IMG/VR virus record: IMGVR_UViG_3300021399_000148
Strand: one strand, 5' to 3'
From: an uncultured virus (IMG/VR IMGVR_UViG_3300021399_000148)
Taxonomy: Duplodnaviria; Heunggongvirae; Uroviricota; Caudoviricetes
Length of the DNA: 20,000 nucleotides
Shown one piece after another: positions 1 through 20,000 of this stretch (position 1 is its first letter; the number at the start of each line of letters is the position of its first letter). The notes beneath the pieces are model-generated. The model worked only from the letters and a program-made list of their open reading frames with translations. It was not told where the DNA came from and did not search any database. Position numbers and translations under genes: made by a program.

Positions 1-70
1 TAGGTTTAATAAAGGGTACGCGTTCAATTTTATAGCCCATCTCAAAAAATAAAAAAATCCTAAAAACCTC

Positions 71-99: not shown

Positions 100-105
100 A
101 TGATT

Positions 106-201: not shown

Positions 202-224
202 AATAAAAAATTTAAAAAAAGGTA

Positions 225-253
225 TTGACAAACTTAAAAAACTATGATATAAT
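225..253 (+). promoter_or_regulatory. sigma-A promoter P2
   Basis: TTGACA-17-TATAAT with A-rich upstream element; nearly identical to P7. Confidence 0.9.
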
Positions 254-299
254 GTAAATGTAAGATAAAGGAAAACAAAAGTAAAAGAAAGGAAACACT

Positions 300-626
300 A
301 TGACTCAGAGAGAATTTTTCAACGCAGTTATCGCAGAAACTCAGAACACCGCAATCAAAGAGTTTGCAACGAACGCACTTCACAAGATGGATGAACGCAA
401 CGCAAACCGTTCTGCAAAACCGTCTAAGACTCAGATTGAGAACGCACCGCTCATTGCTCAGATTAAAGAGATTCTGACCACTGAACCGATGCTTGCAAGT
501 GAAATTGCAGAAAAGGTTGGAATCTCAACCGCCAAGGCTTCGGCACTCGTCAAGAAAGTCGAGGGTGTACACGTTACCGATGTAAAGGTAAAGGGAAAGG
601 GTGCGAGAAAGGCATATTCTCTTTAA
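300..626 (+). CDS. small protein with C-terminal winged-helix domain, paralog 1
   Basis: RBS AAAGGA; LASEIAEKVGISTAKASALVKK HTH pattern; similar to 2316..2648 and 5941..6297. Confidence 0.85.
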   Translation: MTQREFFNAVIAETQNTAIKEFATNALHKMDERNANRSAKPSKTQIENAPLIAQIKEILTTEPMLASEIAEKVGISTAKASALVKKVEGVHVTDVKVKGKGARKAYSL

Positions 627-666
627 TAAATAGGGTTTGCGGTCATCCCTTAAAACCGCATTATAT

Positions 667-750
667 GGGATTGTATCTTAAATGGCAAAGTATCTGACCT
701 AAATGCGTGCATATCAGACATTGTGGGTTCGAATCCCACCAATCCCACCA
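667..750 (+). ncRNA. tRNA-like RNA with 16-nt anticodon loop
   Basis: Acceptor GGGATTG/CAATCCC + ACCA; T arm GTGGG-TTCGAAT-CCCAC; anticodon stem TCTGA/TCAGA closes 16 nt. Confidence 0.8.
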
Positions 751-784
751 CAAATTGACACATTGTTACCTCCTTTTCTTAAAG

Positions 785-813
785 AGAACACCGCAAGTCG
801 GTGTTCTTTTTTT
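785..813 (+). terminator. intrinsic terminator
   Basis: AGAACACCG-CAAGT-CGGTGTTCT followed by T run. Confidence 0.85.
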
Positions 814-823
814 CTAGAAAAGA

Positions 824-869
824 CGAACATACGTTCGCGGCCGGCCAAATGCAGACGAACATACGTTCC
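824..869. promoter_or_regulatory. two LexA (Cheo/SOS) boxes, 824-837 and 856-869
   Basis: CGAACATACGTTCG and CGAACATACGTTCC match Bacillota CGAAC-RNRY-GTTYG. Confidence 0.75.
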
Positions 870-917
870 CGAAATGCGCCGGGCGCGATTGTATACAATA
901 TATTTTTAATTTAGGGG

Positions 918-946
918 TTGACATTCCTCTTCATATGTGGTAATAT
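918..946 (+). promoter_or_regulatory. sigma-A promoter P3
   Basis: TTGACA-17-TAATAT. Confidence 0.8.
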
Positions 947-976
947 TAATACAGAAAGAAGAAAGGAGGATAACAA

Positions 977-1135
977 ATGAACAGAACAAGAAAATTGCAT
1001 TACGTAGTTAATGGATACGGAGAAATAGTCGGGCGTTTTACCGATAGATACAGTGCGATTGCTTATATAAGATATTATCATTCTATTTGCCCTAAAGAGT
1101 GGGTATTTCTTAGAACGATAACGATAAAAGGGTAG
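977..1135 (+). CDS. hypothetical protein, 52 aa (MNRTRKLHYVVNGYGE...)
   Basis: Own promoter, RBS AAGGAGG; below ORF-track cutoff, translated manually. Confidence 0.75.
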   Translation: MNRTRKLHYVVNGYGEIVGRFTDRYSAIAYIRYYHSICPKEWVFLRTITIKG

Positions 1136-1201
1136 TATAAATACACAAGAAGACTTATTAATAGATACAAATAAAATTTAAAATTAATTTTTAAAAAGGG
1201 G

Positions 1202-1230
1202 TTGACATTCAACCCTTTTTATGATATTAT
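1202..1230 (+). promoter_or_regulatory. sigma-A promoter P4
   Basis: TTGACA-17-TATTAT with extended -10 TG. Confidence 0.8.
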
Positions 1231-1262
1231 AATTATAGAGAAAAGGAAAGGAGATAGGAACA

Positions 1263-1427
1263 ATGACAAAGATGGAAATGGTAAACAGAATGATAATTCT
1301 CGGATGCATCAAGGAATCTGACAGAGCAAACATGATGCGTAGAAGTAAGACAAGAATCACTGAAATCTATATCAGAATCGTTCCCGTCAGACTTGAATGG
1401 ATTGAAGAAAATAAGAAAAAGGGTTGA
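1263..1427 (+). CDS. hypothetical protein, 54 aa (MTKMEMVNRMIILG...)
   Basis: RBS AAGGAG; stop codon overlaps the -35 of P5; translated manually. Confidence 0.75.
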   Translation: MTKMEMVNRMIILGCIKESDRANMMRRSKTRITEIYIRIVPVRLEWIEENKKKG

Positions 1428-1452
1428 CAACCCTCTTCAATTATGTTATACT
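1424..1452 (+). promoter_or_regulatory. sigma-A promoter P5
   Basis: TTGACA-17-TATACT with extended -10 TG. Confidence 0.85.
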
Positions 1453-1483
1453 ATAGATACAATAAAGAAAGGGAGATAACATA

Positions 1484-1747
1484 ATGGAAATGACTAGAAT
1501 GCAGAGTATATGGAAGGAACTTAACTACATTGTACTTATCGCACTGATTGCAGGTCAGTGTGTTGTAAAAGCAGACTTTTTAATCGGTCAGTTTGTCTAT
1601 CTGTTCGCCAATGTAATGTCTTTCACTCGTTGCTTTGTTCTTGATAGACCAATTGCAGACAAAATCAAAGATGGATGTTGTTTAGGCATCACGACTGGAT
1701 TAATCGCAATGGTAATTCTTGAAAGTTATGGGATTCATATTGTATAG
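1484..1747 (+). CDS. small membrane protein
   Basis: RBS GGGAG; about three hydrophobic segments. Confidence 0.8.
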   Translation: MEMTRMQSIWKELNYIVLIALIAGQCVVKADFLIGQFVYLFANVMSFTRCFVLDRPIADKIKDGCCLGITTGLIAMVILESYGIHIV

Positions 1748-1767
1748 GAAAAAGAAGGGAGGAAGAA

Positions 1768-1983
1768 ATGCCTATCACAATTATTGGAAATATTGAAATT
1801 AATTTAAATGAAGTCATAGATATTAAATCTATTAAAGATAACATTGTAGATATGGTAGTAGACCAAATAGACTATGACATCTATAAAGAAATTATAGAAT
1901 ACAGTCCAAATTCTTATCAGGAACTTATTAAAGATTGTATGCTTTATATAGCACAATATCTTATCGAAGAATACGAGGGGTAA
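1768..1983 (+). CDS. small acidic hypothetical protein
   Basis: RBS GGAGG; 15 D/E versus 4 K in 71 aa. Confidence 0.8.
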   Translation: MPITIIGNIEINLNEVIDIKSIKDNIVDMVVDQIDYDIYKEIIEYSPNSYQELIKDCMLYIAQYLIEEYEG

Positions 1984-1995
1984 TACCCCTCTTTT
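1975..1995 (+). terminator. intrinsic terminator
   Basis: GAGGGGT-AAT-ACCCCTC-TTTT. Confidence 0.7.
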
Positions 1996-2013
1996 AGTTC
2001 GCGCCGGCCCGCG

Positions 2014-2028
2014 AATTGTCAGAATATT
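2014..2028. promoter_or_regulatory. CodY-like box
   Basis: AATTGTCAGAATATT, 13/15 to AATTTTCWGAAAATT; identical copy at 5229-5243. Confidence 0.6.
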
Positions 2029-2067
2029 CTGTGTTTACGAAAACGATTAAGACTTCATCGAAAACTA

Positions 2068-2096
2068 TTGACTTTCCTCTTCATTTGTAGTAATAT
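2068..2096 (+). promoter_or_regulatory. sigma-A promoter P6 (drives non-coding 2103-2180)
   Basis: TTGACT-17-TAATAT. Confidence 0.7.
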
Positions 2097-2100
2097 ATAC

Positions 2101-2180
2101 TTGTCAAGGGGAGATAAAAGAGTAAATGAAGAAACATGAGAAATCTGATAACAGAGTAATTGGAAAACTCCCCTTGACAA
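2101..2180 (+). ncRNA. candidate small RNA: 13-bp closing stem with 54-nt purine-rich loop
   Basis: TTGTCAAGGGGAG (2101-2113) / CTCCCCTTGACAA (2168-2180), starting at the predicted P6 start site. Confidence 0.45.
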
Positions 2181-2206
2181 AATTCAAAAAAAATTTAAAA
2201 AAGGTC

Positions 2207-2235
2207 TTGACAAACTTAAAAAAGTTTGATATAAT
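2207..2235 (+). promoter_or_regulatory. sigma-A promoter P7
   Basis: TTGACA-17-TATAAT with extended -10 TG. Confidence 0.9.
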
Positions 2236-2315
2236 AAAGACAAGATAAAGGAAAGGGAGACAGGAACTCCCAAAAGTAAAAATAGGTTGCGACTTACCGC
2301 AAGAAAGGAAAAGTT

Positions 2316-2648
2316 ATGACTAAGAGAGAATTTATGCAGATGGTTATCGATGGTGTTACTTCTGAGGAAATGGTTGCATTCGCTACCGCAGAAATCACAA
2401 AGATGGATGCTCGTAACGCAAAGAGGGCAGAGAAGGCGAAGGAAGTCAAGCCCGAAGATGTTGCACTGGATGCAAGAATCCATGAGGTTCTGACTTCTGA
2501 CTATCAGACCGCAACTGAAATCGCTAATCAGATTGAGGGTGTTACTCTCGCAAAGGTTGCGGCTCGTCTGAGAAAGATGGATGACATCTCGGTTATCGAT
2601 GGCGAGTCCCTCGGAATGGGTAAGAAGAAGGTCTACGCTCTCGCATGA
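2316..2648 (+). CDS. winged-helix protein, paralog 2
   Basis: MTKREF... N-terminus and KMDARNAKRA linker shared with 300..626; TATEIANQIEGVTLAKVAARLRK HTH. Confidence 0.85.
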   Translation: MTKREFMQMVIDGVTSEEMVAFATAEITKMDARNAKRAEKAKEVKPEDVALDARIHEVLTSDYQTATEIANQIEGVTLAKVAARLRKMDDISVIDGESLGMGKKKVYALA

Positions 2649-2659
2649 CCTCTTCAATG

Positions 2660-2688
2660 GGGAACGGACGAAAGTCCGTTCTCTTTTT
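2660..2688 (+). terminator. intrinsic terminator
   Basis: GGGAACGGAC-GAAA-GTCCGTTCTC-TTTTT. Confidence 0.9.
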
Positions 2689-2698
2689 GACCCAAAAA

Positions 2699-2712
2699 AG
2701 AACATACGTTCG
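2699..2712. promoter_or_regulatory. LexA box
   Basis: AGAACATACGTTCG. Confidence 0.7.
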
Positions 2713-2735
2713 CGGGCCGGACCGCGCCGGGCCGA

Positions 2736-2753
2736 TTGTTAAAAAATTAACTT
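2736..2753. promoter_or_regulatory. Rex-like operator
   Basis: TTGTTAA-AAAA-TTAACTT versus clostridial TTGTTAA-N4-TTAACAA (12/14). Confidence 0.45.
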
Positions 2754-2764
2754 TTAAAAAGGGG

Positions 2765-2793
2765 TTGACATTTCTTTTGATTTGTGGTAATAT
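2765..2793 (+). promoter_or_regulatory. sigma-A promoter P8
   Basis: TTGACA-17-TAATAT. Confidence 0.8.
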
Positions 2794-2821
2794 TAATATA
2801 GAAAGAGGAAAGGAGAAAAAA

Positions 2822-3037
2822 ATGAAAGTCAGAGGTTATAAGGATTTTAATGGTTGTCCTAAGTGTGGCGGATATGACTATGAAAGTTGGATTGATGGAT
2901 TCGATTTTCTTGATTTAGGTGAGCAATACATAGCCGTACATCATGTTGTTACTTGTAACTGTGGACACCATTACAGATTTGATGAGATTTATAAATATGA
3001 ATGTGACTTAATAAAAGAAAGAGAGGTTATCAAATGA
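2822..3037 (+). CDS. small Zn-ribbon-like protein, 71 aa
   Basis: Start moved to the ATG after AAGGAG; CPKCGG...CNCGH. Confidence 0.8.
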   Translation: MKVRGYKDFNGCPKCGGYDYESWIDGFDFLDLGEQYIAVHHVVTCNCGHHYRFDEIYKYECDLIKEREVIK

Positions 3038-3231
3038 AAATCACAACGAACCATCACGAACACAGATTCGTTCCTGTAGAAAATACAATCCACAACGTGA
3101 TTAAAATAATGGATATGTTGGATTGTACCTATCTCTACAACTCTAAAACTGGTGAAGTAATCAGAATTGAAGATTTATGTAAAACGGTTGATGTTCTGTC
3201 AAAATTTTGTCACGTAGATACGATGAATTAA
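3034..3231 (+). CDS. hypothetical protein
   Basis: ATGA overlap with the upstream gene; RBS GAGG. Confidence 0.75.
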   Translation: MKITTNHHEHRFVPVENTIHNVIKIMDMLDCTYLYNSKTGEVIRIEDLCKTVDVLSKFCHVDTMN

Positions 3232-3245
3232 TTTTAAAAAAGGGG

Positions 3246-3274
3246 TTGACAAATCCCTTTTTCCATGCTATAAT
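3246..3274 (+). promoter_or_regulatory. sigma-A promoter P9
   Basis: TTGACA-17-TATAAT with extended -10 TG. Confidence 0.9.
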
Positions 3275-3315
3275 TAACTTGTAAGTTAAAAAGATACAGA
3301 AAGGAAGTAACAACA

Positions 3316-3984
3316 ATGGTAAAAATTGACCGCAGAAAATCTTATTACATGGTATTCGATACGGAAACTTCTAACGGACTTGATGACCCAATTGTCTACG
3401 ATATTGGATTCGCAATTGTAGATAAAAAAGGCAATGTGTATGAAGCGAAAAGTTTCGTAATCTATGAAACTTTCTGCAAGATGAAAGACTTAATGCAGAG
3501 TGCATACTATGCGGATAAAATCCCTAACTATATTGAACAGATTGAAAATGGTGAAAGAAAAATTGTTCGATTCGCAACCGCAAAAAAGATTATGCGTGAA
3601 TTGTGCGAAAAGTATAATGTCAAGGCAATTATGGCACACAATGCGAGATTCGACTACAAAGCAACCGCAACCACTCAGCGTTACTTAACAAAATCTAAAT
3701 ACCGTTTCTTCCTTCCTTATGGTATTGCACTATGGGATACTCTGAAAATGGCAAGAGACACAATTTGCAAACAGACCATGTATAAAGAATGGGCAAGAAA
3801 AAACGGATATGTAACAAAAAACAATCAAGTAAAAGCAACCGCAGAAATCCTTTACAGATACATCAGCGGAAACAATGACTTCATCGAATCCCATACTGGA
3901 TTAGAAGATGTATTGATTGAGAAAGAAATCTTCGCCCACTGCATGAGACAACACAAATCCATGAGAAAAGAGTGCTTCGCTTGA
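3316..3984 (+). CDS. DEDDh-family 3'-5' exonuclease (DnaQ/RNase T-like)
   Basis: ExoI FDTETS, ExoII AHNARFD, ExoIII HTGLED motifs. Confidence 0.9.
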   Translation: MVKIDRRKSYYMVFDTETSNGLDDPIVYDIGFAIVDKKGNVYEAKSFVIYETFCKMKDLMQSAYYADKIPNYIEQIENGERKIVRFATAKKIMRELCEKYNVKAIMAHNARFDYKATATTQRYLTKSKYRFFLPYGIALWDTLKMARDTICKQTMYKEWARKNGYVTKNNQVKATAEILYRYISGNNDFIESHTGLEDVLIEKEIFAHCMRQHKSMRKECFA

Positions 3985-3996
3985 GCACTCTTTTTT
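3966..3996 (+). terminator. intrinsic terminator
   Basis: AAAAGAGTGCT-7-AGCACTCTTTT-TT. Confidence 0.8.
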
Positions 3997-4051
3997 GAGC
4001 ATGCTCAGTGCGGCCGGGCCAAATGTATACAATATTTTTTTCAAAAAACTA

Positions 4052-4080
4052 TTGACAAATTTATTTATTTGGTATATAAT
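4052..4080 (+). promoter_or_regulatory. sigma-A promoter P10
   Basis: TTGACA-17-TATAAT. Confidence 0.85.
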
Positions 4081-4109
4081 ATCTATAGTAAAAGAAAGGA
4101 GAAAATACA

Positions 4110-4262
4110 ATGACTATTACAAAAGAATTAAATGACTATTTAAAAGAAGTGATTCGCAATAGTTATAAATGTGCGCATTGTACCTTTAATCATTCGGGAA
4201 TTTGTTTCTTTGCTTATGAATGTATTAAAAAAGATTTTCAAAATTTTACCGAAGAAGATTGA
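4110..4262 (+). CDS. small Cys-rich protein, 50 aa (MTITKELNDYLKE...CAHC...C...C)
   Basis: Own promoter, RBS AAGGAG; translated manually. Confidence 0.75.
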   Translation: MTITKELNDYLKEVIRNSYKCAHCTFNHSGICFFAYECIKKDFQNFTEED

Positions 4263-4270
4263 AAAATCTC

Positions 4271-4299
4271 TTGACAACTTCCGCAATTGGGTGTATAAT
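4271..4299 (+). promoter_or_regulatory. sigma-A promoter P11
   Basis: TTGACA-17-TATAAT. Confidence 0.85.
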
Positions 4300-4331
4300 A
4301 TCTATAGAAAATAAAGAAAGGAGAAACAAAA

Positions 4332-4670
4332 ATGGGTGTGAGTTATTTAATGTCAATTGGTTTTGGAGTTATTGTTGACGAAGAGAAAGCCGAAACCATA
4401 GAAAAATACGTTAAGGAAAAATTTTCCGCAAATAAGGCAGACCTCTTCATAGGAGAGTATTTAACTCCTATTAATGCACGGACAAGTGAAGATTATTTTT
4501 TAGGGGTTATAAAAGACTTGAGCTATTCTGATAGAGTGAAGATTGATAATAATCTTTGTGATATGAGAGCAGTAGTAAAATTCTTGCACATGATTACTGA
4601 ATATGAAATCATTCAGTTTCTTTCTAAAAAAGATGAACCAGAATTTTATTTATTAAACTTTTGTTATTAG
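4332..4670 (+). CDS. hypothetical protein
   Basis: RBS AAGGAG; 112-aa ORF. Confidence 0.8.
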   Translation: MGVSYLMSIGFGVIVDEEKAETIEKYVKEKFSANKADLFIGEYLTPINARTSEDYFLGVIKDLSYSDRVKIDNNLCDMRAVVKFLHMITEYEIIQFLSKKDEPEFYLLNFCY

Positions 4671-4673
4671 GGG

Positions 4674-4702
4674 TTGACAAACCAATTCAAACATGATATA
4701 CT
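4674..4702 (+). promoter_or_regulatory. sigma-A promoter P12
   Basis: TTGACA-17-TATACT with extended -10 TG. Confidence 0.85.
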
Positions 4703-4745
4703 ATAGGTACAATAAAGAAAGACAGATGAAGAAAGGTAGGTAATT

Positions 4746-5099
4746 ATGGCAGTATCTCGCAAGGTAGAACGTGAAATGATTAGAACAAACTTTCTCAATC
4801 TCGTAGCGGATTATCTCCACTCGGTTGATGAAGAGGTTTTGCTCGTCAAGTCTAATGAAATCGCAATCCCTGTCGTGGGTTGTGAGGGCAATGAGGATTT
4901 TCTTGTAATCACTTTCAAAGTTCCCACTGGTGCAAACAAGGGGATGGAACCCTATGACGGATATGCAGAAGCCGAAAACTTTGAATTCAAGCAGATGGAA
5001 AAGGCGATGAAAATGCAAGAAAATGCCAAAAAGAAGGCAAAGAAAATTGCTCGTGATGAGGAAATCCGCAAGGCGAAAGCCAATCAGAAAAAAGAGTAA
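4746..5099 (+). CDS. hypothetical protein with basic C-terminal helix
   Basis: RBS AAGGTAGG; K/A-rich C-terminus. Confidence 0.8.
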   Translation: MAVSRKVEREMIRTNFLNLVADYLHSVDEEVLLVKSNEIAIPVVGCEGNEDFLVITFKVPTGANKGMEPYDGYAEAENFEFKQMEKAMKMQENAKKKAKKIARDEEIRKAKANQKKE

Positions 5100-5105
5100 C
5101 TCAAA

Positions 5106-5131
5106 GGCGGTCGGATTGACCGCCGTTTTTT
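5106..5131 (+). terminator. intrinsic terminator
   Basis: GGCGGTC-GGATT-GACCGCC-GTTTTTT. Confidence 0.85.
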
Positions 5132-5198
5132 ATTGTCAACTGCGCAAACAATAAAAGTATTATGTCAACCGCGCGCCGGCGTAAACGCGCCGGCATAA

Positions 5199-5212
5199 CG
5201 AACATATGTTCG
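5199..5212. promoter_or_regulatory. LexA box (perfect palindrome)
   Basis: CGAACATATGTTCG. Confidence 0.8.
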
Positions 5213-5228
5213 CAGGTCCGCCGGCCGA

Positions 5229-5243
5229 AATTGTCAGAATATT
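5229..5243. promoter_or_regulatory. CodY-like box
   Basis: AATTGTCAGAATATT, identical to 2014-2028. Confidence 0.6.
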
Positions 5244-5280
5244 TCAAATTTTAAGACTTCTTAAAATTCTAATTTCCCTA

Positions 5281-5309
5281 TTGACTTCCCATTAATAGTG
5301 TGGTATAAT
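5281..5309 (+). promoter_or_regulatory. sigma-A promoter P13 (no credible CDS downstream)
   Basis: TTGACT-17-TATAAT with extended -10 TG. Confidence 0.75.
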
Positions 5310-5325
5310 TAATTGGGGGAACTTA

Positions 5326-5367
5326 AATTGTCAGAATTTTCTGAATTGTCTGAGTTTTCTGATGTAT
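5326..5367. promoter_or_regulatory. tandem overlapping CodY-like sites with 9-bp period
   Basis: AATTGTCAGAATTTT / AATTTTCTGAATTGT / AATTGTCTGAGTTTT / AGTTTTCTGATGTAT at 5326, 5335, 5344, 5353. Confidence 0.6.
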
Positions 5368-5405
5368 ACAGTATCCCGTATTTTGTATACAGTATACGCG
5401 CGGGA

Positions 5406-5419
5406 CGAACGTATGTTCG
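5406..5419. promoter_or_regulatory. LexA box
   Basis: CGAACGTATGTTCG, the reverse complement of 824-837. Confidence 0.75.
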
Positions 5420-5445
5420 CGGTGTGTCAAATTTTACGGGTCGTA

Positions 5446-5783
5446 GGGAGCTGCAAAGCGAGCTGCGTTTGGTCAGCCAGGGAGCTGCGTCGCGCGGCTG
5501 TGAGGGAGCTGCGTTTACGCGCGGGCTAAGGAGCTGCATTTTCGAGGGAGCTGCGCCCCAGAAATTTGACAAAAAATTTCAAATTTTAAATAAACTTTCC
5601 TGAAAATTTGACTTTTAATTTCAAACTGTGATATAATATAAAAAAACAATTAAATTTTTGCAGCTGCAAAACTTGATTTTTAAAGTCAAATTTTAGCCGC
5701 GCAGATAATCCAAAAGAAGCTGCAATTTGAGAACTTCTGAAAATTCTAGTATACTATATATAGAAAGTGAGAGAGGGAGCTGC
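5446..5783 (+). repeat. co-oriented (G)GGAGCTGC repeats
   Basis: Copies at 5446, 5460, 5480, 5504, 5529, 5546, 5775; AGCTGC variants at about 5662 and 5718. Confidence 0.85.
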
Positions 5784-5851
5784 AAAAAATCCTCTCTTGT
5801 GCGGGAAGAGGGAAAAGAAAATTTGAAAACCTCAGAAAATCCTGCTATAAT
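5608..5851 (+). promoter_or_regulatory. three tandem promoters P14 (5608-5637), P15 (5727-5755), P16 (5823-5851)
   Basis: TTGACT-18-TATAAT; TTGAGA-17-TATACT; TTGAAA-17-TATAAT; P15 and P16 share the leader ATAGAAAGTGAGAG. Confidence 0.7.
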
Positions 5852-5940
5852 AATTATAGAAAGTGAGAGAAGAAAGTAACTCTTCTCAAAAGAAATGTGA
5901 CTGGCGCCCACTGCCCTAGTGTGGGAGAAAGAAGGATTCT

Positions 5941-6297
5941 ATGATGACCAAGATTGATGCTTACAAGGCTGTTGTTGCTGGTGAAGTGACCGAGGAAGTT
6001 AAGGAGAAGTTCGCAGAGATGATTGCGGCTTACGAAACTGAGGCTGGAAAGCGTAGAGAGCGCGCAGCCGAGAAGAGAGCCGAGAAGAGAGCTGTTGATG
6101 CGGGCCTGGAAGCTGCAATTCTGGAGGCTCTGGGAGAGGAGCCGATGTCTGCCTCTCAGATTATGGAGGCTGTAGAGGGCATCGCAACGCCGCAGAAGGC
6201 TACCGTGCTGGTCAAGAGACTGGTTGAGGACGGAAAGGCTGAGCAGGTCGACATGAAGATCGAGAAGAGAAAGGTCAAGGGCTACGTTGTAGCTTGA
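5941..6297 (+). CDS. winged-helix protein, paralog 3
   Basis: ILEALGEEPMSASQIMEAV...QKATVLVKRLVEDGK; same architecture as paralogs 1 and 2. Confidence 0.85.
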   Translation: MMTKIDAYKAVVAGEVTEEVKEKFAEMIAAYETEAGKRRERAAEKRAEKRAVDAGLEAAILEALGEEPMSASQIMEAVEGIATPQKATVLVKRLVEDGKAEQVDMKIEKRKVKGYVVA

Positions 6298-6313
6298 TCT
6301 CATCAACTAGACG

Positions 6314-6341
6314 GAAAAAAGAGCCGAAAGGCTCTTTTTTC
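6314..6341. terminator. bidirectional intrinsic terminator
   Basis: GAAAAAAGAGCC-GAAA-GGCTCTTTTTTC. Confidence 0.9.
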
Positions 6342-6344
6342 TTT

Positions 6345-7380
6345 TGTATACGTATACGTATACGTATATATGTACGTATAATATGTATGTTTTGTATGCG
6401 GAAATTTGACTTTTAAAGTCATTTTTTAAAAAAATTTTTTTAAAAATTTGATTGGGTTCGTTGGTTGTGGCACCCACCTACTACCACTTATTATAACCTA
6501 CTACCACTCATTGTAACCTACTTCCTTTTATTCAAACCTATTCAAACCTATTCCGAACCCTATATATATACATATAGAAACTGTCGCTTTATCCACGATA
6601 GGGAGGGTCTCTTGGTACTTGAAAGGTACGCGGACCTTGCACATACACGTTCGGAACCTCAAATTTCACAATTTTAGTATACGTATTACGTATACGTTGG
6701 GTAGTTGTTGGGGTAGGCGAAGTAAAGAGTTAAATGGGGTGGGGCGGTTTAAGAACTTATACGTATACGTATTATGTATACGTAGAATGAGTAGGTGGAG
6801 CTGGTGAGGGGCGGCGGAGTTAAGAAAGACAGAACTATATATATGTACATATTATATGTACGTATTATATGTACATACTATATATATGTATATATGTAGT
6901 GGCGGTATACTATATATGTAGTAGTTAATTGTAGTGGCTGTTCTGTATACGTTTTGTGTGGCTTTTCAGCCGTTGGCTAAAAGCCCACACAAAGTTTTTT
7001 TGGCCTTCGGCCTAGAGCAAAAAAAAATTTTTTTTAAAAAAAATTTTTATTTATAGTACGTATATATGTACATACTATATGTATATATTATATGTACATA
7101 TTATATATATTTCTCTTACGTTTTTATAATAAGTAGTTTTTAGTAAAAGTCTCTACTAACTTTTTCAGACGCAGATTTCAAAAAAATTTTTCTATTGTAG
7201 AGGGCGGCCGAGCGTAAGTTGCAGTGGTCCTGCAAAATTTTTGGAAAATTTTTAGCCTGAAAAATCTTGGAAAATTTTCAACCCATAAAGAATCTTGGAA
7301 AATTTCTCGGCCTGTGAAATCCTAGAAAATTTTCAACTGCGCGCAGTACCCGAAAAGAAAAATCTTGGAAAATTTCCCAA
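6345..7380. repeat. non-coding repeat-rich region at the transcription convergence point (possible origin, genome end or packaging signal)
   Basis: TATACG/TATGTACA tracts, A/T dyads, 20-bp phased ACCTA repeats, five YTRGAAAATT repeats; no credible ORF. Confidence 0.7.
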
Positions 7381-7381
7381 T

Positions 7382-7411
7382 AAAAAAGACTCAGGTTTCT
7401 ACCTAAGTCTT
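7382..7411 (-). terminator. intrinsic terminator of the minus-strand operon
   Basis: AAAGACTcAGGT-TTCT-ACCTaAGTCTTT hairpin followed by a T run on the minus strand. Confidence 0.7.
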
Positions 7412-14841: not shown

Positions 14842-14885
14842 GTGCGTTTCCTTTCTTTTTACTTCTTTTCTCACCTTCTATAAAT

Positions 14886-14914
14886 ATTATATCAAAATTT
14901 CTAGAAAAATTCAA
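14886..14914 (-). promoter_or_regulatory. promoter of the long minus-strand operon
   Basis: TTGAAT-17-TATAAT with extended -10 TG. Confidence 0.8.
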
Positions 14915-14918
14915 ATTT

Positions 14919-14947
14919 AAAAAGAGAGGAATCCTGCGATTCCTCTC
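14919..14947 (-). terminator. intrinsic terminator
   Basis: GAGAGGAATC-4-GATTCCTCTC followed by T5 on the minus strand. Confidence 0.8.
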
Positions 14948-14962
14948 CTCATATTCCCATAT

Positions 14963-15382
14963 TTACCAAGTAGTTGCGATGTCAAATTGATGGGGATTTT
15001 CATAAATGAACTCTCCCGTGTCGCAGACGATTCCTGGGCCAAGGCTTGTCTCTACAATCGTTCCCCTTGGGAATAAATCAAGGTCGGCCGCAACCATCAC
15101 ATAGTCACCGAACATTTTTACACCGTCCTCGCGCACCCAATAGGTATATTCATAACCTAAGCTATACATTTTTTCGAGAACACCAGTCATATCGAGATTG
15201 TAATAGGTTTCCGTACACTGCGGCCCGTCGATCACGCCAAGGTTAGGGGTTAAAACGAGCTGGTCATCGTATACTTCAACGACATCATAAGCACACTTAT
15301 CTTCTATATACTGTTCATCAGCTACATCTCCAGTCACACTCGAAAGAATTATAATGGTTGTTAATACTGCTTCTGTTATCAT
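14963..15382 (-). CDS. exported 3D-domain-like (MltA/RlpA DPBB-type) cell-wall protein
   Basis: N-terminal hydrophobic stretch; VAADL..FPRGT.V.T..G.G.V.DTG...DI motif with three Asp. Confidence 0.65.
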   Translation of the reverse strand: MITEAVLTTIIILSSVTGDVADEQYIEDKCAYDVVEVYDDQLVLTPNLGVIDGPQCTETYYNLDMTGVLEKMYSLGYEYTYWVREDGVKMFGDYVMVAADLDLFPRGTIVETSLGPGIVCDTGEFIYENPHQFDIATTW

Positions 15383-15408
15383 AGCACCTCCGTTGGCATT
15401 GATGGGTT

Positions 15409-15600
15409 TTAGTTTTCATAGGTTAATCCCTCTTGAACAGCTACTACACCATGGACCAATGTAAAGGTTAAGCTATCATTGGTTTCAAAATTAAAAAGTG
15501 CGGGATAGCCGAGCAAAGTTAAGTCTTGCATATTGAAGTAACGATTGAACTCTTCTCGATTTTCAAAAGTAACTGTTTTGTTATTATTAGTCATCAGCAT
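15409..15600 (-). CDS. hypothetical protein
   Basis: Start moved to MLMTNN after AAAGGA; own promoter. Confidence 0.7.
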   Translation of the reverse strand: MLMTNNNKTVTFENREEFNRYFNMQDLTLLGYPALFNFETNDSLTFTLVHGVVAVQEGLTYEN

Positions 15601-15635
15601 TTTATTTTTTTCCTTTCTTTTCATTTTCTATATAT

Positions 15636-15664
15636 AGTATATCAAAAATTTTAAGAAAAATCAA
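15636..15664 (-). promoter_or_regulatory. promoter
   Basis: TTGATT-17-TATACT with extended -10 TG. Confidence 0.7.
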
Positions 15665-15671
15665 ATTTATA

Positions 15672-17279
15672 TTATAAATACCCTTTCACAAAACCAATAA
15701 AATTTTCTAAAAAATGTATAGATATTTTTGTATTCTCCATCGATGCTTTATATTGCCTCTTCCAATTTGCCATATAATACGAAGCATCATTCGAATCATC
15801 CACTGCGGGCGCGGAAATTGTAACTCTCACATAAGAAGAAGGGTTTTGTTCTACACTATTAATGGCAGTGCCAAGTGCAAATAGAAAAGCAGATAAAGGA
15901 ATTAACATACCCTGAAGTCCCATTACATGTATAGCATTGCCGCCTGGATTACCAATAGTAGTATAATCATCAAATAAATAATAAGCAATACCCTCTGCAA
16001 GAACTTGCGATGTCTGTGAGGTATCTCCAGCCATTATTGCTCCTTTACCATTCTGTAATAAATTATAGACAACCTGGTCTATATTGCCAACTATACCACC
16101 TAATAAAGATTTTACTTGTGTTAAATCCCACGCAGTGCCCGCGCTCATACCGCCGCGGCGACGGAAATTTTCATTTAAAGTATAGTTTTTATCATTAACA
16201 TAAACGATAAAACCATTTTTTACTTTCTCTAAATTGGCACCTAAATTACTAAACTCTTTAACTGCTGCGGCTCTAGTAGAATCCTGTTTTTCAACATTGT
16301 CAAAAGCCTGTTGAATTCTACCTCCATTCATACCAAAATAAAAAACATTATCTGCACGAGCATCCACTGCTCCTGCGCCCGCATGAACACCAGCGGAAGC
16401 TGTAACATTTGGTAAACTATTAAGTTTATTTGCAGTCATAGTCAAGCACTGATCAATTAAGACTTCTAAGGAAAGACCACCTTTAGAATGCATCGACTTT
16501 TCCAATTCTTTTTTTACTTTCCCTCTCGCACGATCCATTGTACCCCGTCTTGGCATATAACGTCTTTGAGAAAAAGCCTTAGTAAATTCTTCAGCTACTT
16601 TATCAAGCCCCCAAGCTCGCGCCAGTCCCTCTGTAAACATATTTTGAGTAGGAAATTTTTTTATAAAATTTATAATTTCTAAATAAGCATTTCGATGCTC
16701 TTGATCCATAGAATTTGTTAATTCAACATTGGCATTAAACATTCTTTGAACACCGTCATTGATCAAGTTAGGTAATTCTGCCATAAATACCTCTTTCGCA
16801 GCATCTCCTGCGCTAATAGAAGGTTTCTTAATCATAGTATCAATAATTTTTGTAGTTAAACTAGATTCCATGCTTTTATAGGCTTGCATAAAATAAGTAT
16901 GAAAATAACTAAATACGCCTTTATTTCCTTTGAACTCTTCACTAGTAATTAATGCTTTATTGCGCTCATATATAGTACGAAATTCAAAAGCATCATTGAT
17001 TGCCTCTGTCAACTGTTTAATTGCGCCAGGTTTTGTTAAGTCCAAATGTAAATCCACACCGAAAATTTGCCTTAGCATAGCCTGCTCTTTGTTGGCTTCC
17101 GCCGCGGCCATCGAAAGTATCTTGTTTCCACCTCCAAAACCATGTGTTTCAGAATCTAAAGGTTTATACATAGACATAGCTGAATTATAAACACCAGATA
17201 ATTCTGGACGAGCCTTATGTACAACCGCGTCACGTGTCAATCTTTCAAAATAAACCGCAGACATACTTCCTTTCTGCAT
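15672..17279 (-). CDS. large hypothetical protein, 535 aa
   Basis: Long ORF; start moved to MQKGSM after GGGAGGGAG; family not recognised. Confidence 0.85.
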   Translation of the reverse strand: MQKGSMSAVYFERLTRDAVVHKARPELSGVYNSAMSMYKPLDSETHGFGGGNKILSMAAAEANKEQAMLRQIFGVDLHLDLTKPGAIKQLTEAINDAFEFRTIYERNKALITSEEFKGNKGVFSYFHTYFMQAYKSMESSLTTKIIDTMIKKPSISAGDAAKEVFMAELPNLINDGVQRMFNANVELTNSMDQEHRNAYLEIINFIKKFPTQNMFTEGLARAWGLDKVAEEFTKAFSQRRYMPRRGTMDRARGKVKKELEKSMHSKGGLSLEVLIDQCLTMTANKLNSLPNVTASAGVHAGAGAVDARADNVFYFGMNGGRIQQAFDNVEKQDSTRAAAVKEFSNLGANLEKVKNGFIVYVNDKNYTLNENFRRRGGMSAGTAWDLTQVKSLLGGIVGNIDQVVYNLLQNGKGAIMAGDTSQTSQVLAEGIAYYLFDDYTTIGNPGGNAIHVMGLQGMLIPLSAFLFALGTAINSVEQNPSSYVRVTISAPAVDDSNDASYYMANWKRQYKASMENTKISIHFLENFIGFVKGYL

Positions 17280-17421
17280 CTCTCCCTCCCAATAAAAAAT
17301 GGGCGCATCCTTCCGACCGCCCAAGAGATATATATAAAAAGTCTACTCTATTAACGAGAGACTTGGATTATTCTTCTGTTAATTAAAAGTAGACTTCTTC
17401 ACATAACACTCTAAAATTTTC

Positions 17422-17679
17422 TTACCACAAAGTATTTTCTTCCAAATAACTGGCAGCTTCATTAAAAATTCTCATACCCTCCGCGTTCTCAAAAAGAAGC
17501 AACTCATTCGGAGAAATCGGCTCAATAGTAATTTTATCAATACAATCTTCTCCAAAATAATCACTCATCTTAGAAACCGCCTCGCGCATAGTATCTGCAG
17601 CCACGAACAACCAAGCTATTTGAAGACCTTTTGCCACATCATATTCATCGATAAATCTTACTTCCGCTTTAAAAACCAT
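17422..17679 (-). CDS. acidic hypothetical protein
   Basis: RBS AAGGA; 85 aa. Confidence 0.75.
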   Translation of the reverse strand: MVFKAEVRFIDEYDVAKGLQIAWLFVAADTMREAVSKMSDYFGEDCIDKITIEPISPNELLLFENAEGMRIFNEAASYLEENTLW

Positions 17680-17680
17680 C

Positions 17681-17872
17681 TTACTTCCTTTCCTCTCTTT
17701 GAATCAGCTCTTCCAAAAACTCAATCAAACTTTCATCTTCCACATAATACATGTCTGTACCATGAAGACTTTGCAAGTAACTAATTAACTGCATAAAACG
17801 AAGGTCAGGCAACTCTTCCCAAAAAGTTTCAATTTGCTTTAATACTTTTGGTATTCGTTTAACGTCCCGCAT
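17681..17872 (-). CDS. small phage protein (MRD..RI...W...PDLRFMQLI; DUF1040/YihD-like)
   Basis: Start moved to MRDVKR after GGAGG; PDLR.Q motif. Confidence 0.65.
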   Translation of the reverse strand: MRDVKRIPKVLKQIETFWEELPDLRFMQLISYLQSLHGTDMYYVEDESLIEFLEELIQREERK

Positions 17873-17894
17873 ATAAACCTCCAAGTTATTTGTT

Positions 17895-17980
17895 TGGTGC
17901 GCCCGGTCGGACTCGAACCGACACGACTTTCGTCACGGGTTTTTAAGACCCGAGCGCCTACCTAGTTACGCCACGAGCGC
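17895..17980 (-). tRNA. tRNA-Leu(TAA)
   Basis: Cloverleaf, loop CTTAAAA, long variable arm, encoded CCA. Confidence 0.92.
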
Positions 17981-17999
17981 GCATCACAATTAATAAATA

Positions 18000-18300
18000 A
18001 TGTATTCAAGCCTTCTCCCAACAAATACATTGTGTTCTTCACCGTGTGATATTTCCAGCCTCACACCGCGGCTTTGACAAGAAAGAACGTCCCATACAGA
18101 CACCTATACGTACTCGGCGCCCGCGCTATTCAGGTTGCGACCCTCGCGAATTAAGGCTCTCGCTCATACAGCGGTTATCTCCAACTTCATCCTATTCAGA
18201 AGTGCTACGCCACCAGCAAACAGCCAACCTTTCCTCACAGTATGACTTGTTGATACATAGCAGCTCTATAGCGCCACCATGCTCTCATCTATCTGGTATT
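18000..18300 (-). ncRNA. candidate structured non-coding RNA
   Basis: ORF-free, GC-richer, several hairpins with repeated loop motifs. Confidence 0.4.
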
Positions 18301-18312
18301 GAAAGGATTTTA

Positions 18313-18394
18313 TGGTGGAGATGACCGGATTCGAACCGGTGTCCTCGACAGTTCACTTTGGGTTTAAGCCGAGTCGAACGCCCATCGCATCCCC
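18313..18394 (-). ncRNA. mini-tmRNA (tRNA-like domain only, no mRNA-like domain)
   Basis: GGGGATG/CATCTCC-ACCA acceptor with G3:U70, stemless D loop ending TTCGAC, P2 CTCGGC/GTCGAG, GAC linker, T arm ACCGG-TTCGAAT-CCGGT; 82 nt. Confidence 0.8.
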
Positions 18395-18496
18395 ATATGA
18401 TGGCAAGGGACACCGCCCGCGCCATCAACAGTTTAATTATTATTCTCCTACGCGACCTATCACGGCGAGGTCGCAGTTCTCTCTGCGACATTCCAT

Positions 18497-18571
18497 TGGA
18501 GCTTCGAGAGGGACTTGAACCCCCAACCTAGAGTTTACAAAACTCTTGCGCTGCCATTGCGCCATCGAAGC
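18497..18571 (-). tRNA. tRNA-Thr(TGT)
   Basis: Cloverleaf, loop TTTGTAA, CCA. Confidence 0.92.
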
Positions 18572-18689
18572 TTGAAAAGGTGAACTAAGCTGCGGCTCCA
18601 TCTCGTGTGTTCACCCGCGGGGGTTCCTATACCCGACACACGCCTCTTACCACTTCCGAAGACCGGGTTTAAACAGTTTTCCCTCTGCA

Positions 18690-18766
18690 TGGAGAGTACG
18701 GCTGGATTTGAACCAGCGAATAACAGGGTTGCAGCCTGCTCCCTTAAGCCACTTGGGTACGCACTC
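18690..18766 (-). tRNA. tRNA-Cys(GCA)
   Basis: Loop CTGCAAC, U73, CCA. Confidence 0.92.
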
Positions 18767-18770
18767 TTAT

Positions 18771-18845
18771 TGGTTGAGGAGGTGGGACTCGAACCCACGT
18801 ACTTCAGCTTATGAGGCTGACAAGGAACCGCTCCTCCACTCCTCA
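18771..18845 (-). tRNA. tRNA-Met(CAT); initiator/elongator status uncertain
   Basis: Loop CTCATAA; U1-A72 and A11-U24 present, but lacks the three consecutive G-C anticodon-stem pairs. Confidence 0.85.
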
Positions 18846-18852
18846 ATATAAT

Positions 18853-18927
18853 TGGCGGTTTGTAAGGGAATCGAACCCTTATCTTCGGATCGACAGTCCG
18901 ATATAATAACCACTATACTAACAAACC
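18853..18927 (-). tRNA. tRNA-Asp(GTC)
   Basis: Loop CTGTCGA, G73, CCA. Confidence 0.92.
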
Positions 18928-18930
18928 ATG

Positions 18931-19007
18931 TGGCGGGACATCTAGGACTTGAACCTAGGACCTAACGGTTAACAGCCGTTTGCTACCACCAGCTGAGCTA
19001 ATGTCCC
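18931..19007 (-). tRNA. tRNA-Asn(GTT)
   Basis: Loop CTGTTAA, G73, CCA. Confidence 0.92.
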
Positions 19008-19011
19008 AAAT

Positions 19012-19087
19012 TGGTAGTCCTGGGGAGAGTCGAACTCCTCGTTACGTGGATGAAAACCACGTGTCCTATCCGTTAGACTACAGGACC
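19012..19087 (-). tRNA. tRNA-Glu(TTC)
   Basis: Loop TTTTCAT, CCA; slightly irregular T stem. Confidence 0.85.
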
Positions 19088-19092
19088 AAATT

Positions 19093-19167
19093 TGGCAGCG
19101 AGTGCAGGGTTCGAACCTGCGAATCCTGGAGTCAAATTCCAGTGCCTTACCACTTGGCTAACCCGCT
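19093..19167 (-). tRNA. tRNA-Gln(TTG)
   Basis: Loop ATTTGAC, G73, CCA. Confidence 0.92.
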
Positions 19168-19172
19168 ATAGT

Positions 19173-19286
19173 ACAGTGACTTAGGACTGCTTTCGCTTAA
19201 GTTGAGATTCGAACTCAATCCTTCCACCTTTCGGTGACTGTGCTACCCATACACCTCTCAAGCTACTAACTAATCCATATCACTGT
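19173..19286 (-). ncRNA. tRNA-mimic with GAAA tetraloop in place of the anticodon loop, mounted on an extended helix
   Basis: Cloverleaf 19195-19263 without CCA; AGUA/GAA internal loop; outer stems GGATT/AGTCC and ACAGTGAT/GTCACTGT. Confidence 0.7.
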
Positions 19287-19289
19287 TTA

Positions 19290-19780
19290 AAGTTAGGTTT
19301 CAGCATGCCACCCACAAGCAGTAGAGATTTGCGTAATCTACCAACGAAGCTTAATTAAGTTTGCGGAAAGGAATAGGGAGTTATCCGCCACACTCACATA
19401 TTCCTATTAATAATGATGATAGTATTTTTCCGTTCCCCTCTTTTATAATGCGCCAGCGGTCTGTCAGCTACTATCAAACTCCTCCTTTGCGCTTACTACA
19501 TTTCTCCTTTCGGATGCTCGCCGCTTTTCCTACTCAGATACGGCCCCTGTAGTGGGTGCAGACTGGTTGATTATACGCCCAACAAGTTAACGCGTTTTAT
19601 AAATGGCTTTGTCCTCAAACTGCGGCTCGCATTCATGGCCGAATTTTATGGGTCATGACTCCCAAACTGTTAGTGTTATTGCTTGGCTTTTAGCGGAGGT
19701 CGTCTCCTAGGACTCTTTCATATAGTTTCGCGCGCCTATATGAATTTCACATTGCCATTTTTTTTCTTTCTCTCTTCACT
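19290..19780 (-). ncRNA. candidate large structured non-coding RNA
   Basis: About 490 nt without a long ORF, directly after the promoter; several stems and a pseudoknot. Confidence 0.45.
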
Positions 19781-19790
19781 TTCTATAATA

Positions 19791-19819
19791 ATTATACTAA
19801 AATTCTCAGAAGTTTTCAA
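19791..19819 (-). promoter_or_regulatory. promoter of the tRNA/ncRNA cluster
   Basis: TTGAAA-17-TATAAT; leader ATAGAAAGTGA as in P15 and P16. Confidence 0.8.
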
Positions 19820-20000
19820 ATTTTATTTTTCTTCTCTTTCACCTCTTAATTGAGATTAAGTCAGCCGAGCGTGCAGTTTCAATCACGCGCATCCCACGTG
19901 GATTCAACGAACGTAACTGAGGTAGCTTACGCGGATTTGTGTCTGGCATATAGCTTCTGTCCGTCCACCGCCGCCTTCTGTGGTGTCTCCCCACTGCTTT

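What the first reader, a model, noticed from the sequence alone, without database searches (positions are those of the whole stretch)
18313..18394. 82-nt tmRNA lacking the entire mRNA-like domain
Seen (minus strand): GGGGATG CGATGGGCGTTCGA CTCGGC [18 nt] GTCGAG GAC ACCGG TTCGAAT CCGGT CATCTCC ACCA. Established: G3:U70 with A73 (AlaRS identity), a stemless D loop ending UUCGAC, helix P2a and a 3-nt GAC linker into the T arm are the signature of the SmpB-binding tmRNA tRNA-like domain. Normal tmRNA has roughly 250-300 nt with pseudoknots and a tag ORF where this has 18 nt. The order is not circularly permuted, so it is not a standard two-piece gene. Inference: it could sequester SmpB and block trans-translation tagging of phage proteins, or release stalled ribosomes without tagging. 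I know TLD-only tmRNAs from protist mitochondria but not as a described phage effector.
Basis: partly seen in the sequence, partly recalled or inferred. Interest (0 to 1): 0.85.

Follow-up and report, generated by a model that had tools for sequence, protein, structure and literature searches.

The report
Phage tag-less mini-tmRNA, DS6A type
This gut phage carries a real 82-base gene for only the alanine-accepting, tRNA-like head of the bacterial ribosome-rescue RNA (tmRNA); one such phage RNA was already published, so this is a further member of a large, under-annotated phage family that probably competes with the host's rescue-and-tag system.

Summary
18313-18394 (-) is a complete tmRNA tRNA-like domain (Rfam tmRNA 52.6 bits, cut-off 47), with 18 nt in place of the mRNA domain, inside a phage tRNA cluster.

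It is not an assembly deletion: contigs from two other studies bridge it without an insertion. It is not decay: close kin change only in ways that keep pairing, and at least 145 distinct viral sequences share the form.

It is not new as a phage element. A TLD-only tmRNA of mycobacteriophage DS6A is published and reported to inhibit host tmRNA. DS6A scores 64.4 bits against a model built without it and shares the apical motif. This scan has also noted the kind many times on other DNA.

Most likely it is alanylated, binds host SmpB (0 of 25 carriers encode SmpB) and competes with host tmRNA, lowering tagging (~0.5). G3·U70 and A73 are near-invariant (95 and 97 of 99), although titration reportedly needs no charging. 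That keeps template-free alanine addition, or tag-free rescue, open (~0.25). Expression, charging and binding were not shown here. Verdict: new member of a known kind.

The parts
18313..18394 (-). 82-nt TLD-only (tag-less) tmRNA gene
   Evidence: Rfam RF00023 52.6 bits; own model R1 73.8 bits, with the window in its training set
18388..18394 (-). Acceptor stem 5' strand, G3 of the G3·U70 alanine identity pair
   Evidence: Sequence; G3·U70 in 95 of 99 distinct viral matches found without fixing the 3' end
18374..18387 (-). Stemless D loop ending UUCGA, the tmRNA-type SmpB contact region
   Evidence: Rfam alignment; SmpB binds the TLD (PMC3929946 passages); binding itself not tested
18368..18373 (-). 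Helix P2a, 5' strand
   Evidence: Covariation: 5 of 6 pairs with two-sided changes, 96.7% of cells paired
18350..18367 (-). 18-nt cap replacing the mRNA-like domain: purine run plus CC, a short loop, and a weak 2-bp apical pairing in this member
   Evidence: RAR(N)CC in 75 of 102 long-class representatives vs 6.6 expected by shuffle; in 1 of 25 full-length viral and 2 of 54 host tmRNAs; fold
18344..18349 (-). Helix P2a, 3' strand
18324..18343 (-). GAC linker and T arm
   Evidence: T stem paired in 100% of cells, with two-sided changes at 4 of 5 pairs
18313..18323 (-). Acceptor 3' strand with U70, discriminator A73 and encoded CCA
   Evidence: A73 in 97 of 99 and encoded CCA in 32 of 99; related strains in runs X5 and X7 lack the encoded CCA
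17895..19167 (-). Phage tRNA cluster that contains the gene (Gln, Glu, Asn, Asp, Met, Cys, Thr upstream; Leu downstream)
   Evidence: ARAGORN, 8 tRNAs
19791..19819 (-). Host-type sigma-70/sigma-A promoter-like site upstream of the cluster; probable source of a polycistronic precursor (inferred)
   Evidence: 11 of 12 consensus matches, although 7 sites were found against 4.2 expected in that region; similar to promoter repeats at 5724-5879

Best explanation
A functional, phage-encoded tmRNA head without a message, of the DS6A type. Steps: (1) It is co-transcribed with the tRNA cluster and trimmed like a tRNA (inferred). (2) Host AlaRS charges it through G3·U70/A73 (inferred from near-invariant identity elements). 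(3) It binds host SmpB and EF-Tu (inferred; carriers encode no SmpB). (4) The complex competes with host tmRNA for limiting SmpB and for ribosomes stalled on broken mRNA. Having no reading frame, it cannot add the degradation tag, so host trans-translation tagging falls during infection (reported for the DS6A-like RNA in E. coli in a paper seen only second-hand; not tested for this RNA). Shown here: the gene, its structure, its conservation and its family. My confidence that it is a real, selected TLD-only tmRNA is about 0.95; the score below is for the competitive-inhibitor mechanism.
For: Rfam tmRNA above cut-off. Covariation: 97.4% of cells paired vs 68.7% shuffled, 13 of 18 pairs with two-sided changes (alignment fitted to the structure). 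Without an alignment, P2a pairing is 94% vs 44% in mismatched controls over 115 representatives. DS6A, not in the training set, scores 64.4 bits, against at most 27.8 for tRNAs, and has the same apical motif. Literature: the DS6A TLD-only RNA, or a similar molecule, inhibits host tmRNA, perhaps by titrating SmpB (PMC4131195 section 10; PMC11915505 section 12). No SmpB in 25 of 25 carrier records, 12 of them at least 90% complete. No full-length tmRNA in 24 of 25. Virus-enriched: 94 of 99 distinct viral pattern matches have a paired acceptor stem vs 8 of 119 parsed bacterial-genome matches flagged TLD-like under slightly different filters.
Against: PMC4131195 says the inhibition occurs whether or not the RNA is chargeable, yet G3·U70 (95 of 99) and A73 (97 of 99) are under strong selection, which a pure sponge does not explain. 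One complete carrier genome, G010, encodes both a mini and a 392-nt full tmRNA, which is awkward for a simple blocker. Blocking rescue could also starve the phage of ribosomes (inference). No RNA evidence for the element itself: the one RNA run laid gave only 36-38-nt 3' pieces with 5 mismatches. Mao et al. 2009 could not be read.
Confidence: 0.5

Rival explanations
1. Message-free rescue. Charged mini-tmRNA with SmpB enters stalled ribosomes and accepts the peptide. One or several alanines are added from successive mini-tmRNAs, and the ribosome is then recycled by host drop-off or splitting plus Pth. The product is untagged or carries a short alanine tail, which in Bacillota is itself a degron. 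The phage gains a rescue RNA with no coding region for host nucleases to cut.
For: Near-invariant alanine identity. TLD plus SmpB makes polyalanine in vitro without a template (Shimizu and Ueda 2006, as described in PMC2481249 and PMC3929946). Conserved CDS-less tmRNAs exist in mitochondria and plastids, and natural 2-residue Ala-Ala tags exist (PMC11915505). Polyalanine tails target proteins to ClpXP in B. subtilis (bioRxiv 10.1101/2024.03.03.583159 passages). The gene sits among tRNAs.
Against: With no stop codon there is no built-in release step. Carriers encode no RF-1/ArfB-domain protein (0 of 25), Pth in 0 of 5 and Pth2 in 1 of 5. The only in vivo report is inhibition.
Confidence: 0.25
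2. Decoy against anti-phage defence. The RNA soaks up a host nuclease or sensor that recognises tmRNA or tRNA ends, such as the predicted SmpB-like domain of CoCoNuT systems, or its conserved apical loop binds such a factor.
For: A family-specific apical motif that full-length tmRNAs mostly lack (75 of 102 vs 1 of 25 and 2 of 54) suggests a partner other than the ribosome's usual contacts. CoCoNuT systems carry SmpB-like folds predicted to bind tmRNA (PMC11090510 passages).
Against: The CoCoNuT link is a prediction only, and I did not test co-occurrence. 13 of 115 representatives have a short plain hairpin without the motif. The motif may simply be inherited from a gammaproteobacterial-type tmRNA, where it also occurs. 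No recurring neighbour gene across lineages among 78 flanking ORFs of 39 loci; GP88 recurs in 4.
Confidence: 0.12
3. One half of a split tmRNA whose reading frame is supplied in trans, for example by the conserved non-coding stretch just downstream.
For: About 215 nt downstream of the gene are 84-92% conserved in two relatives, L487 and L489, and an RNA-library contig covers 18021-18204.
Against: P2a is closed in cis, so there is no free strand for a coding piece. No reading frame ending in a tmRNA-type tag was seen by eye in the three minus-strand frames of four flanking stretches. The downstream stretch matched only 3 of all loci held. Rfam finds nothing there.
Confidence: 0.04
4. Artefact or relic: an assembly deletion, a decayed tmRNA, or an integration-site fragment.
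For: tmRNA 3' ends are common attachment sites (PMC9004378 passage), and internal deletions are seen in some older assemblies (PMC11915505 section 7).
Against: Contigs of three runs from three studies cover the cap without an insertion (X3 shares a study with the possible source, X5 and X7 do not). Both ends are intact. All 8 distinct stem substitutions among 11 close-kin cores keep pairing. The gene is 90-98% identical in four phage records, above the 75-90% of their matching tRNAs, and the similarity stops at the gene's ends.
Confidence: 0.03
5. An odd tRNA-Ala that decodes a codon with its cap loop.
For: Alanine identity elements and a place in a tRNA cluster.
Against: No D stem. An anticodon-arm-like hairpin occurs in only 1 of 115 representatives, and not in this one. 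ARAGORN gives no call.
Confidence: 0.02

Closest known systems
TLD-only ('standard, no CDS') tmRNA of Mycobacterium phage DS6A (tmID 11587; Mao et al. 2009 as cited in PMC4131195 and PMC11915505)
   Same: Phage-encoded, standard order, about 82 nt, G3·U70/A73, stemless D loop, P2a closed by a short cap with the same purine-run-CC motif; 64.4 bits against model R1, which was built without it.
   Different: Different sequence and host group (ruminant-gut phage, host unknown, probably Bacillota by inference). This one lies in a tRNA cluster and encodes CCA; DS6A's lies between protein genes and does not. The apical stem is weaker here.
CDS-less organellar tmRNAs (jakobid and oomycete mitochondria, Rfam RF02544; Mallomonadaceae plastids)
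   Same: tmRNA head without a tag reading frame (PMC11915505, PMC3985003 passages).
   Different: Those are the organelle's only tmRNA, usually permuted, and paired with their own nucleus-encoded SmpB. Here the RNA enters a cell that has its own full tmRNA, and it brings no SmpB. RF02544 gave no listed match (overlapping lower-scoring clan matches are hidden).
Standard bacterial and phage tmRNA (Rfam RF00023)
   Same: The whole tRNA-like domain; passes the family cut-off.
   Different: Lacks P2b-d, the pseudoknots, the resume codon, the tag frame and the stop codon, so it cannot carry out trans-translation.
RqcH/RqcP polyalanine tailing (bacterial RQC)
   Same: Possible functional analogue if the RNA adds alanines without a template.
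   Different: RQC works on split 50S subunits with ordinary tRNA-Ala and proteins; there is no homology. Analogy only, untested.

Membership tests
TLD-only tmRNA, DS6A type | tmRNA-type acceptor stem with G3·U70 and A73 | tested here: met
   7 of 7 pairs, G3·U70, A73 and CCA in the sequence
TLD-only tmRNA, DS6A type | Stemless D loop, P2a, short linker and T arm, in standard order | tested here: met
   Rfam alignment; covariation
TLD-only tmRNA, DS6A type | mRNA-like domain absent, and really absent from the DNA | tested here: met
   18-nt cap; bridged without insertion in runs X3, X5 and X7
TLD-only tmRNA, DS6A type | Same family as the DS6A RNA by profile | tested here: met
   DS6A 64.4 bits against R1 vs at most 27.8 for tRNAs; shared apical motif
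TLD-only tmRNA, DS6A type | Phage-encoded | tested here: met
   PHROG matches in the window. The closest homologue (2 differences) lies in a 144.9-kb viral record with T4-like portal, prohead protease and major capsid genes, though that record shares only one weakly similar protein family with the window. No structural gene lies in the window itself.
TLD-only tmRNA, DS6A type | Inhibits host tmRNA tagging in vivo | not testable with these tools
   Reported for the DS6A-like RNA only (second-hand)
TLD-only tmRNA, DS6A type | Expressed, processed, alanylated, bound by SmpB | tested here: inconclusive
   The one RNA run laid holds no contig across the element; charging and binding cannot be tested here
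Standard tmRNA (trans-translation competent) | Tag reading frame with resume and stop codons, and pseudoknots | tested here: not met
   308 model positions replaced by 14 nt; no ARAGORN call
Two-piece (permuted) tmRNA | 3' part precedes 5' part, with a coding piece downstream of CCA | tested here: not met
   RF04321 21.1 bits, cut-off 47; no tag-like frame seen in the flanks
tRNA-Ala | D stem and a 5-bp anticodon stem with 7-nt loop | tested here: not met

The most novel reading that the evidence does not exclude
Phages across many hosts encode a minimal tmRNA that is an active, message-free rescue factor rather than a passive SmpB sponge. With host SmpB it takes over stalled ribosomes and adds alanines with no template: a natural version of the in vitro TLD-SmpB polyalanine reaction, and a third route to C-terminal tailing beside tmRNA tagging and RqcH. 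Its conserved apical motif would recruit a release or protective factor. Near-invariant alanine identity, co-occurrence with a full tmRNA in one genome, and replacement rather than loss of the gene after a homing-endonuclease insertion in a relative all fit; none proves it.
Probability: 0.2. Interest if true: 0.75.

Novelty: new member of a known kind. Interest (0 to 1): 0.36.

Why it matters
The form is published from one phage. The 2025 tmRNA database counts only 9 standard-form sequences without a reading frame among 97,179. Two capped pattern scans alone gave 145 distinct passing sequences, the window's included, and about a tenth of sampled viral tmRNA-type 3' ends are of this kind (11 of 100). 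ARAGORN misses them, so phage annotation overlooks a common RNA aimed at host translation quality control. Testing it would show whether phages inhibit trans-translation or rewire it, and would also address how message-less organellar tmRNAs can work. The element itself is one more member, so its own novelty is modest.

Tried and rejected
No whole genome is held for the window, so the phage's own SmpB, Pth or full-tmRNA content could not be checked; 25 related carrier records were used instead.

BLAST of the element against cultured phages found only T-arm/acceptor fragments, and none covered 80%. BLAST of the cluster found tRNA matches only.

The single-sequence fold was uninformative.

A link to a DUF2828-family neighbour, seen beside the gene in G001, was not found in the window or in any other held locus outside that record. 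Flanking ORFs of 39 loci showed no common partner across lineages. The window's 550-aa ORF has no Pfam, PHROG or Atlas match.

A coding piece in trans was rejected. Exact-pattern scans for the downstream non-coding stretch and for the odd tRNA at 667-750 found nothing in viral contigs, and the scan for 18591-18694 found only the L232 record.

The RNA run showed no contig over the element; absence from contigs is not evidence against expression.

Mao et al. 2009 is not held. Paper searches showed no paper describing a widespread phage family, but subscription journals are mostly missing. I did not open the supplements of PMC11915505, which may list more phage entries.

Full report
1. Observation. 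The minus strand at 18394-18313 reads as reported. It parses into a 7-bp acceptor stem with G3·U70, a 14-nt stemless D loop, a 6-bp P2a, an 18-nt cap, a GAC linker, a 5-bp T arm, A73 and CCA. Rfam tmRNA scores 52.6 bits against a cut-off of 47, with 308 model positions replaced by 14 nt; the permuted model scores 21.1. ARAGORN tRNAs from 17895 to 19167 on the same strand but not this gene. The lone-sequence fold is no better than shuffles (z -0.52), so the structure had to be tested comparatively.

2. Real DNA. Twenty runs from 9 studies hold at least part of the region, and those with a habitat label are gut samples, several from goat, sheep or cattle. I laid 4 of the 20. A contig of X3 covers 18317-18980 with no difference; X3 shares a study with the possible source. 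Contigs of X5 (17996-18503) and X7 (18297-18461), from two other studies, cross the cap with no gap. Those two strains lack the encoded CCA. The RNA run X19 gave only 36-38-nt 3' pieces with 5 mismatches, so expression is not shown.

3. Family. After removing duplicates there were 87 and 99 distinct cores; pooled with the window, 157. Of these, 145 passed a filter of at least 6 of 7 acceptor pairs and a 5' GG, and 12 were dropped. Lengths are 64-90 nt. There are 115 representatives below 92% identity: 102 with a long cap and 13 with a short hairpin. In the unconstrained set, with no rows dropped, G3·U70 is present in 95 of 99, A73 in 97 of 99 and encoded CCA in 32 of 99.

P2a positions 2-6 pair in 94% of cells, against 44% (maximum 51%) when halves are swapped between sequences. 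A model-fitted alignment of 100 sequences (99 of the 102 long representatives plus DS6A) shows 97.4% paired cells and two-sided changes at 13 of 18 pairs, far above shuffled and slid controls. That alignment leans towards the structure, and its members were pre-filtered for acceptor pairing.

Among 19 close-kin loci (11 distinct cores; L484, L490 and L485 left out because of indels or an insertion), all 8 distinct stem substitutions keep pairing. In four phage records the gene is 90-98% identical to ours, above the 75-90% of matching tRNAs, and the similarity ends at the gene's borders. The closest record, G001, is a 144.9-kb phage with T4-like head genes and CHAP and GH25 lysins. It shares only one weakly similar protein family with the window, so the RNA is either exchanged between distant phages or very strongly conserved.

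4. Distribution. A similar pattern in bacterial genomes hit mostly 3' ends of ordinary tmRNAs. In a sample of viral tmRNA-type 3' ends (100 of 118 loci searched), 11 scored 49 bits or more as minis (threshold set by eye, just above a locus that ARAGORN calls full length). Seventeen of 56 mini loci have a tRNA within 1.5 kb.

Of 25 larger carrier records (12 at least 90% complete), none encodes SmpB or an RF-1-domain protein, and one, G010, also carries a 392-nt tmRNA. Pth was found in 0 of 5 and Pth2 in 1 of 5.

5. The cap. A purine-run-CC motif follows P2a in 75 of 102 long representatives (shuffle mean 6.6, maximum 15). It occurs in only 1 of 25 full-length viral and 2 of 54 host tmRNAs. In 74 of the 88 sequences that carry a looser form of the motif, it opens a short apical helix; in our member this helix is only 2 bp. 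Its role is unexplained: an inherited remnant or a binding site.

6. What is known. PMC4131195 (passages seen) lists 'Mycobacterium phage DS6A (TLD only)'. It says a similar molecule, chargeable or not, strongly inhibits tmRNA, perhaps by titrating SmpB, citing Mao et al. 2009. PMC11915505 (passages and section 7 seen) repeats this, counts 9 standard-form sequences without a CDS, and notes that its pipeline relied on ARAGORN and BLAST hits. Mao et al. 2009 itself is not held.

I fetched the DS6A region (accession recalled, record confirmed by the call, coordinates suggested by earlier finding e1-5661594). It has the same architecture and apical motif and scores 64.4 bits against my model, which did not include it, versus at most 27.8 for tRNAs. 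The element therefore belongs to a described kind. The scan's own notes record the kind repeatedly: a word search returned 186 notes in at least 144 genomes, of which I saw 8. These are AI notes, not independent evidence.

7. Mechanism. Shown: an intact, selected TLD with alanine identity, no reading frame, and no phage SmpB in related carriers. Inferred: tRNA-like processing from a cluster transcript (promoter-like site at 19819-19791), charging, SmpB and EF-Tu binding, and competition with host tmRNA.

The best-supported outcome is reduced tagging (0.5), since it is the only in vivo result reported. Two findings sit badly with a pure sponge: the near-invariant charging identity and the genome that carries both forms. 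TLD plus SmpB makes polyalanine without a template in vitro (PMC2481249 and PMC3929946, passages; the original paper was not read), and alanine tails are degrons in B. subtilis (bioRxiv 10.1101/2024.03.03.583159, passages). Message-free rescue or alanine tailing is therefore the main rival (0.25); its weak point is release.

A defence-decoy role (0.12) rests on the unexplained cap and on predicted SmpB-like domains of CoCoNuT systems (PMC11090510, passages). Split gene, relic or artefact, and odd tRNA-Ala are each at or below 0.04. A Bacillota host is an inference from gut origin, the promoter repeats, G001's lysins and one similar mini on a short contig of a Butyrivibrio assembly (L247). Other papers seen as passages only: PMC9004378, PMC3985003, PMC1168896; PMC10264068 gave only a reference line.

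8. Novelty and verdict. New member of a known kind. My paper searches showed no account of the family's breadth or of the apical motif, but the library lacks most subscription papers and I did not open the supplements of PMC11915505. Interest 0.36: the gene is real and testable, and the family is under-annotated, but the concept of a phage TLD-only inhibitor is in print.

Noticed in passing
L485:1393-1936 (-): The first 26 nt of a mini-tmRNA of our type are followed by a LAGLIDADG ORF (Pfam PF00961/PF14528) and then by an intact but divergent mini-tmRNA (67.4 bits). This looks like a free-standing homing endonuclease that entered the gene and brought a replacement allele.
   Followed up: partly
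G010:C1 46486-46567 and 77588-77979 (L502, L501): One complete viral record carries both a mini and a 392-nt full tmRNA. The frame I picked by eye as the likely tag reads 23 residues ending in ALSV, not the usual AA; ARAGORN picks another frame.
   Followed up: partly
window 18097-18312 (-): Non-coding stretch directly after the gene, 84-92% conserved in L487 and L489, with a core near 18100-18245 better conserved than its flanks. An RNA-library contig covers 18021-18204. No Rfam match and no unusual fold energy. A candidate unknown RNA.
   Followed up: partly
window 18591-18694 (-): Non-coding stretch between tRNA-Cys and tRNA-Thr, 80% identical to a stretch in the tRNA cluster of L232. No Rfam match. 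A second candidate unknown RNA.
   Followed up: partly
window 667-750 (+): tRNA-like gene (Rfam tRNA 53.1 bits) missed by ARAGORN. It has an intact acceptor stem, T arm and CCA but about 16 nt in place of the 7-nt anticodon loop, and lies among early-type promoters away from the cluster. No viral match to an exact pattern. Possibly a tRNA mimic or decoy.
   Followed up: partly
window 45-5879 (+) and 14850-19835 (-): Many repeated TTGACA...TATAAT-type promoters with a shared purine-rich tail in front of short genes, diverging from an AT-rich repeat zone at about 6300-7400 where GC skew flips. Probably an early region around an origin or genome end.
   Followed up: no
window 300-626, 2316-2648, 5941-6297 (+): Three similar-looking small basic proteins of 108-118 aa, probably paralogous DNA-binding proteins; no Pfam match.
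   Followed up: no
window 15672-17324 (-): 550-aa ORF with no Pfam, PHROG or usable Atlas match.
   Followed up: partly
L230:11940-13466 (+): In G001 a DUF2828/DUF7788 gene follows the mini-tmRNA and tRNA-Leu. It was not found beside other minis.
   Followed up: yes
L247, L262, L273, L294, L301, L306, L344: TLD-only genes on contigs of prokaryote genome assemblies. Whether they are proviral, misbinned or chromosomal was not checked.
   Followed up: no
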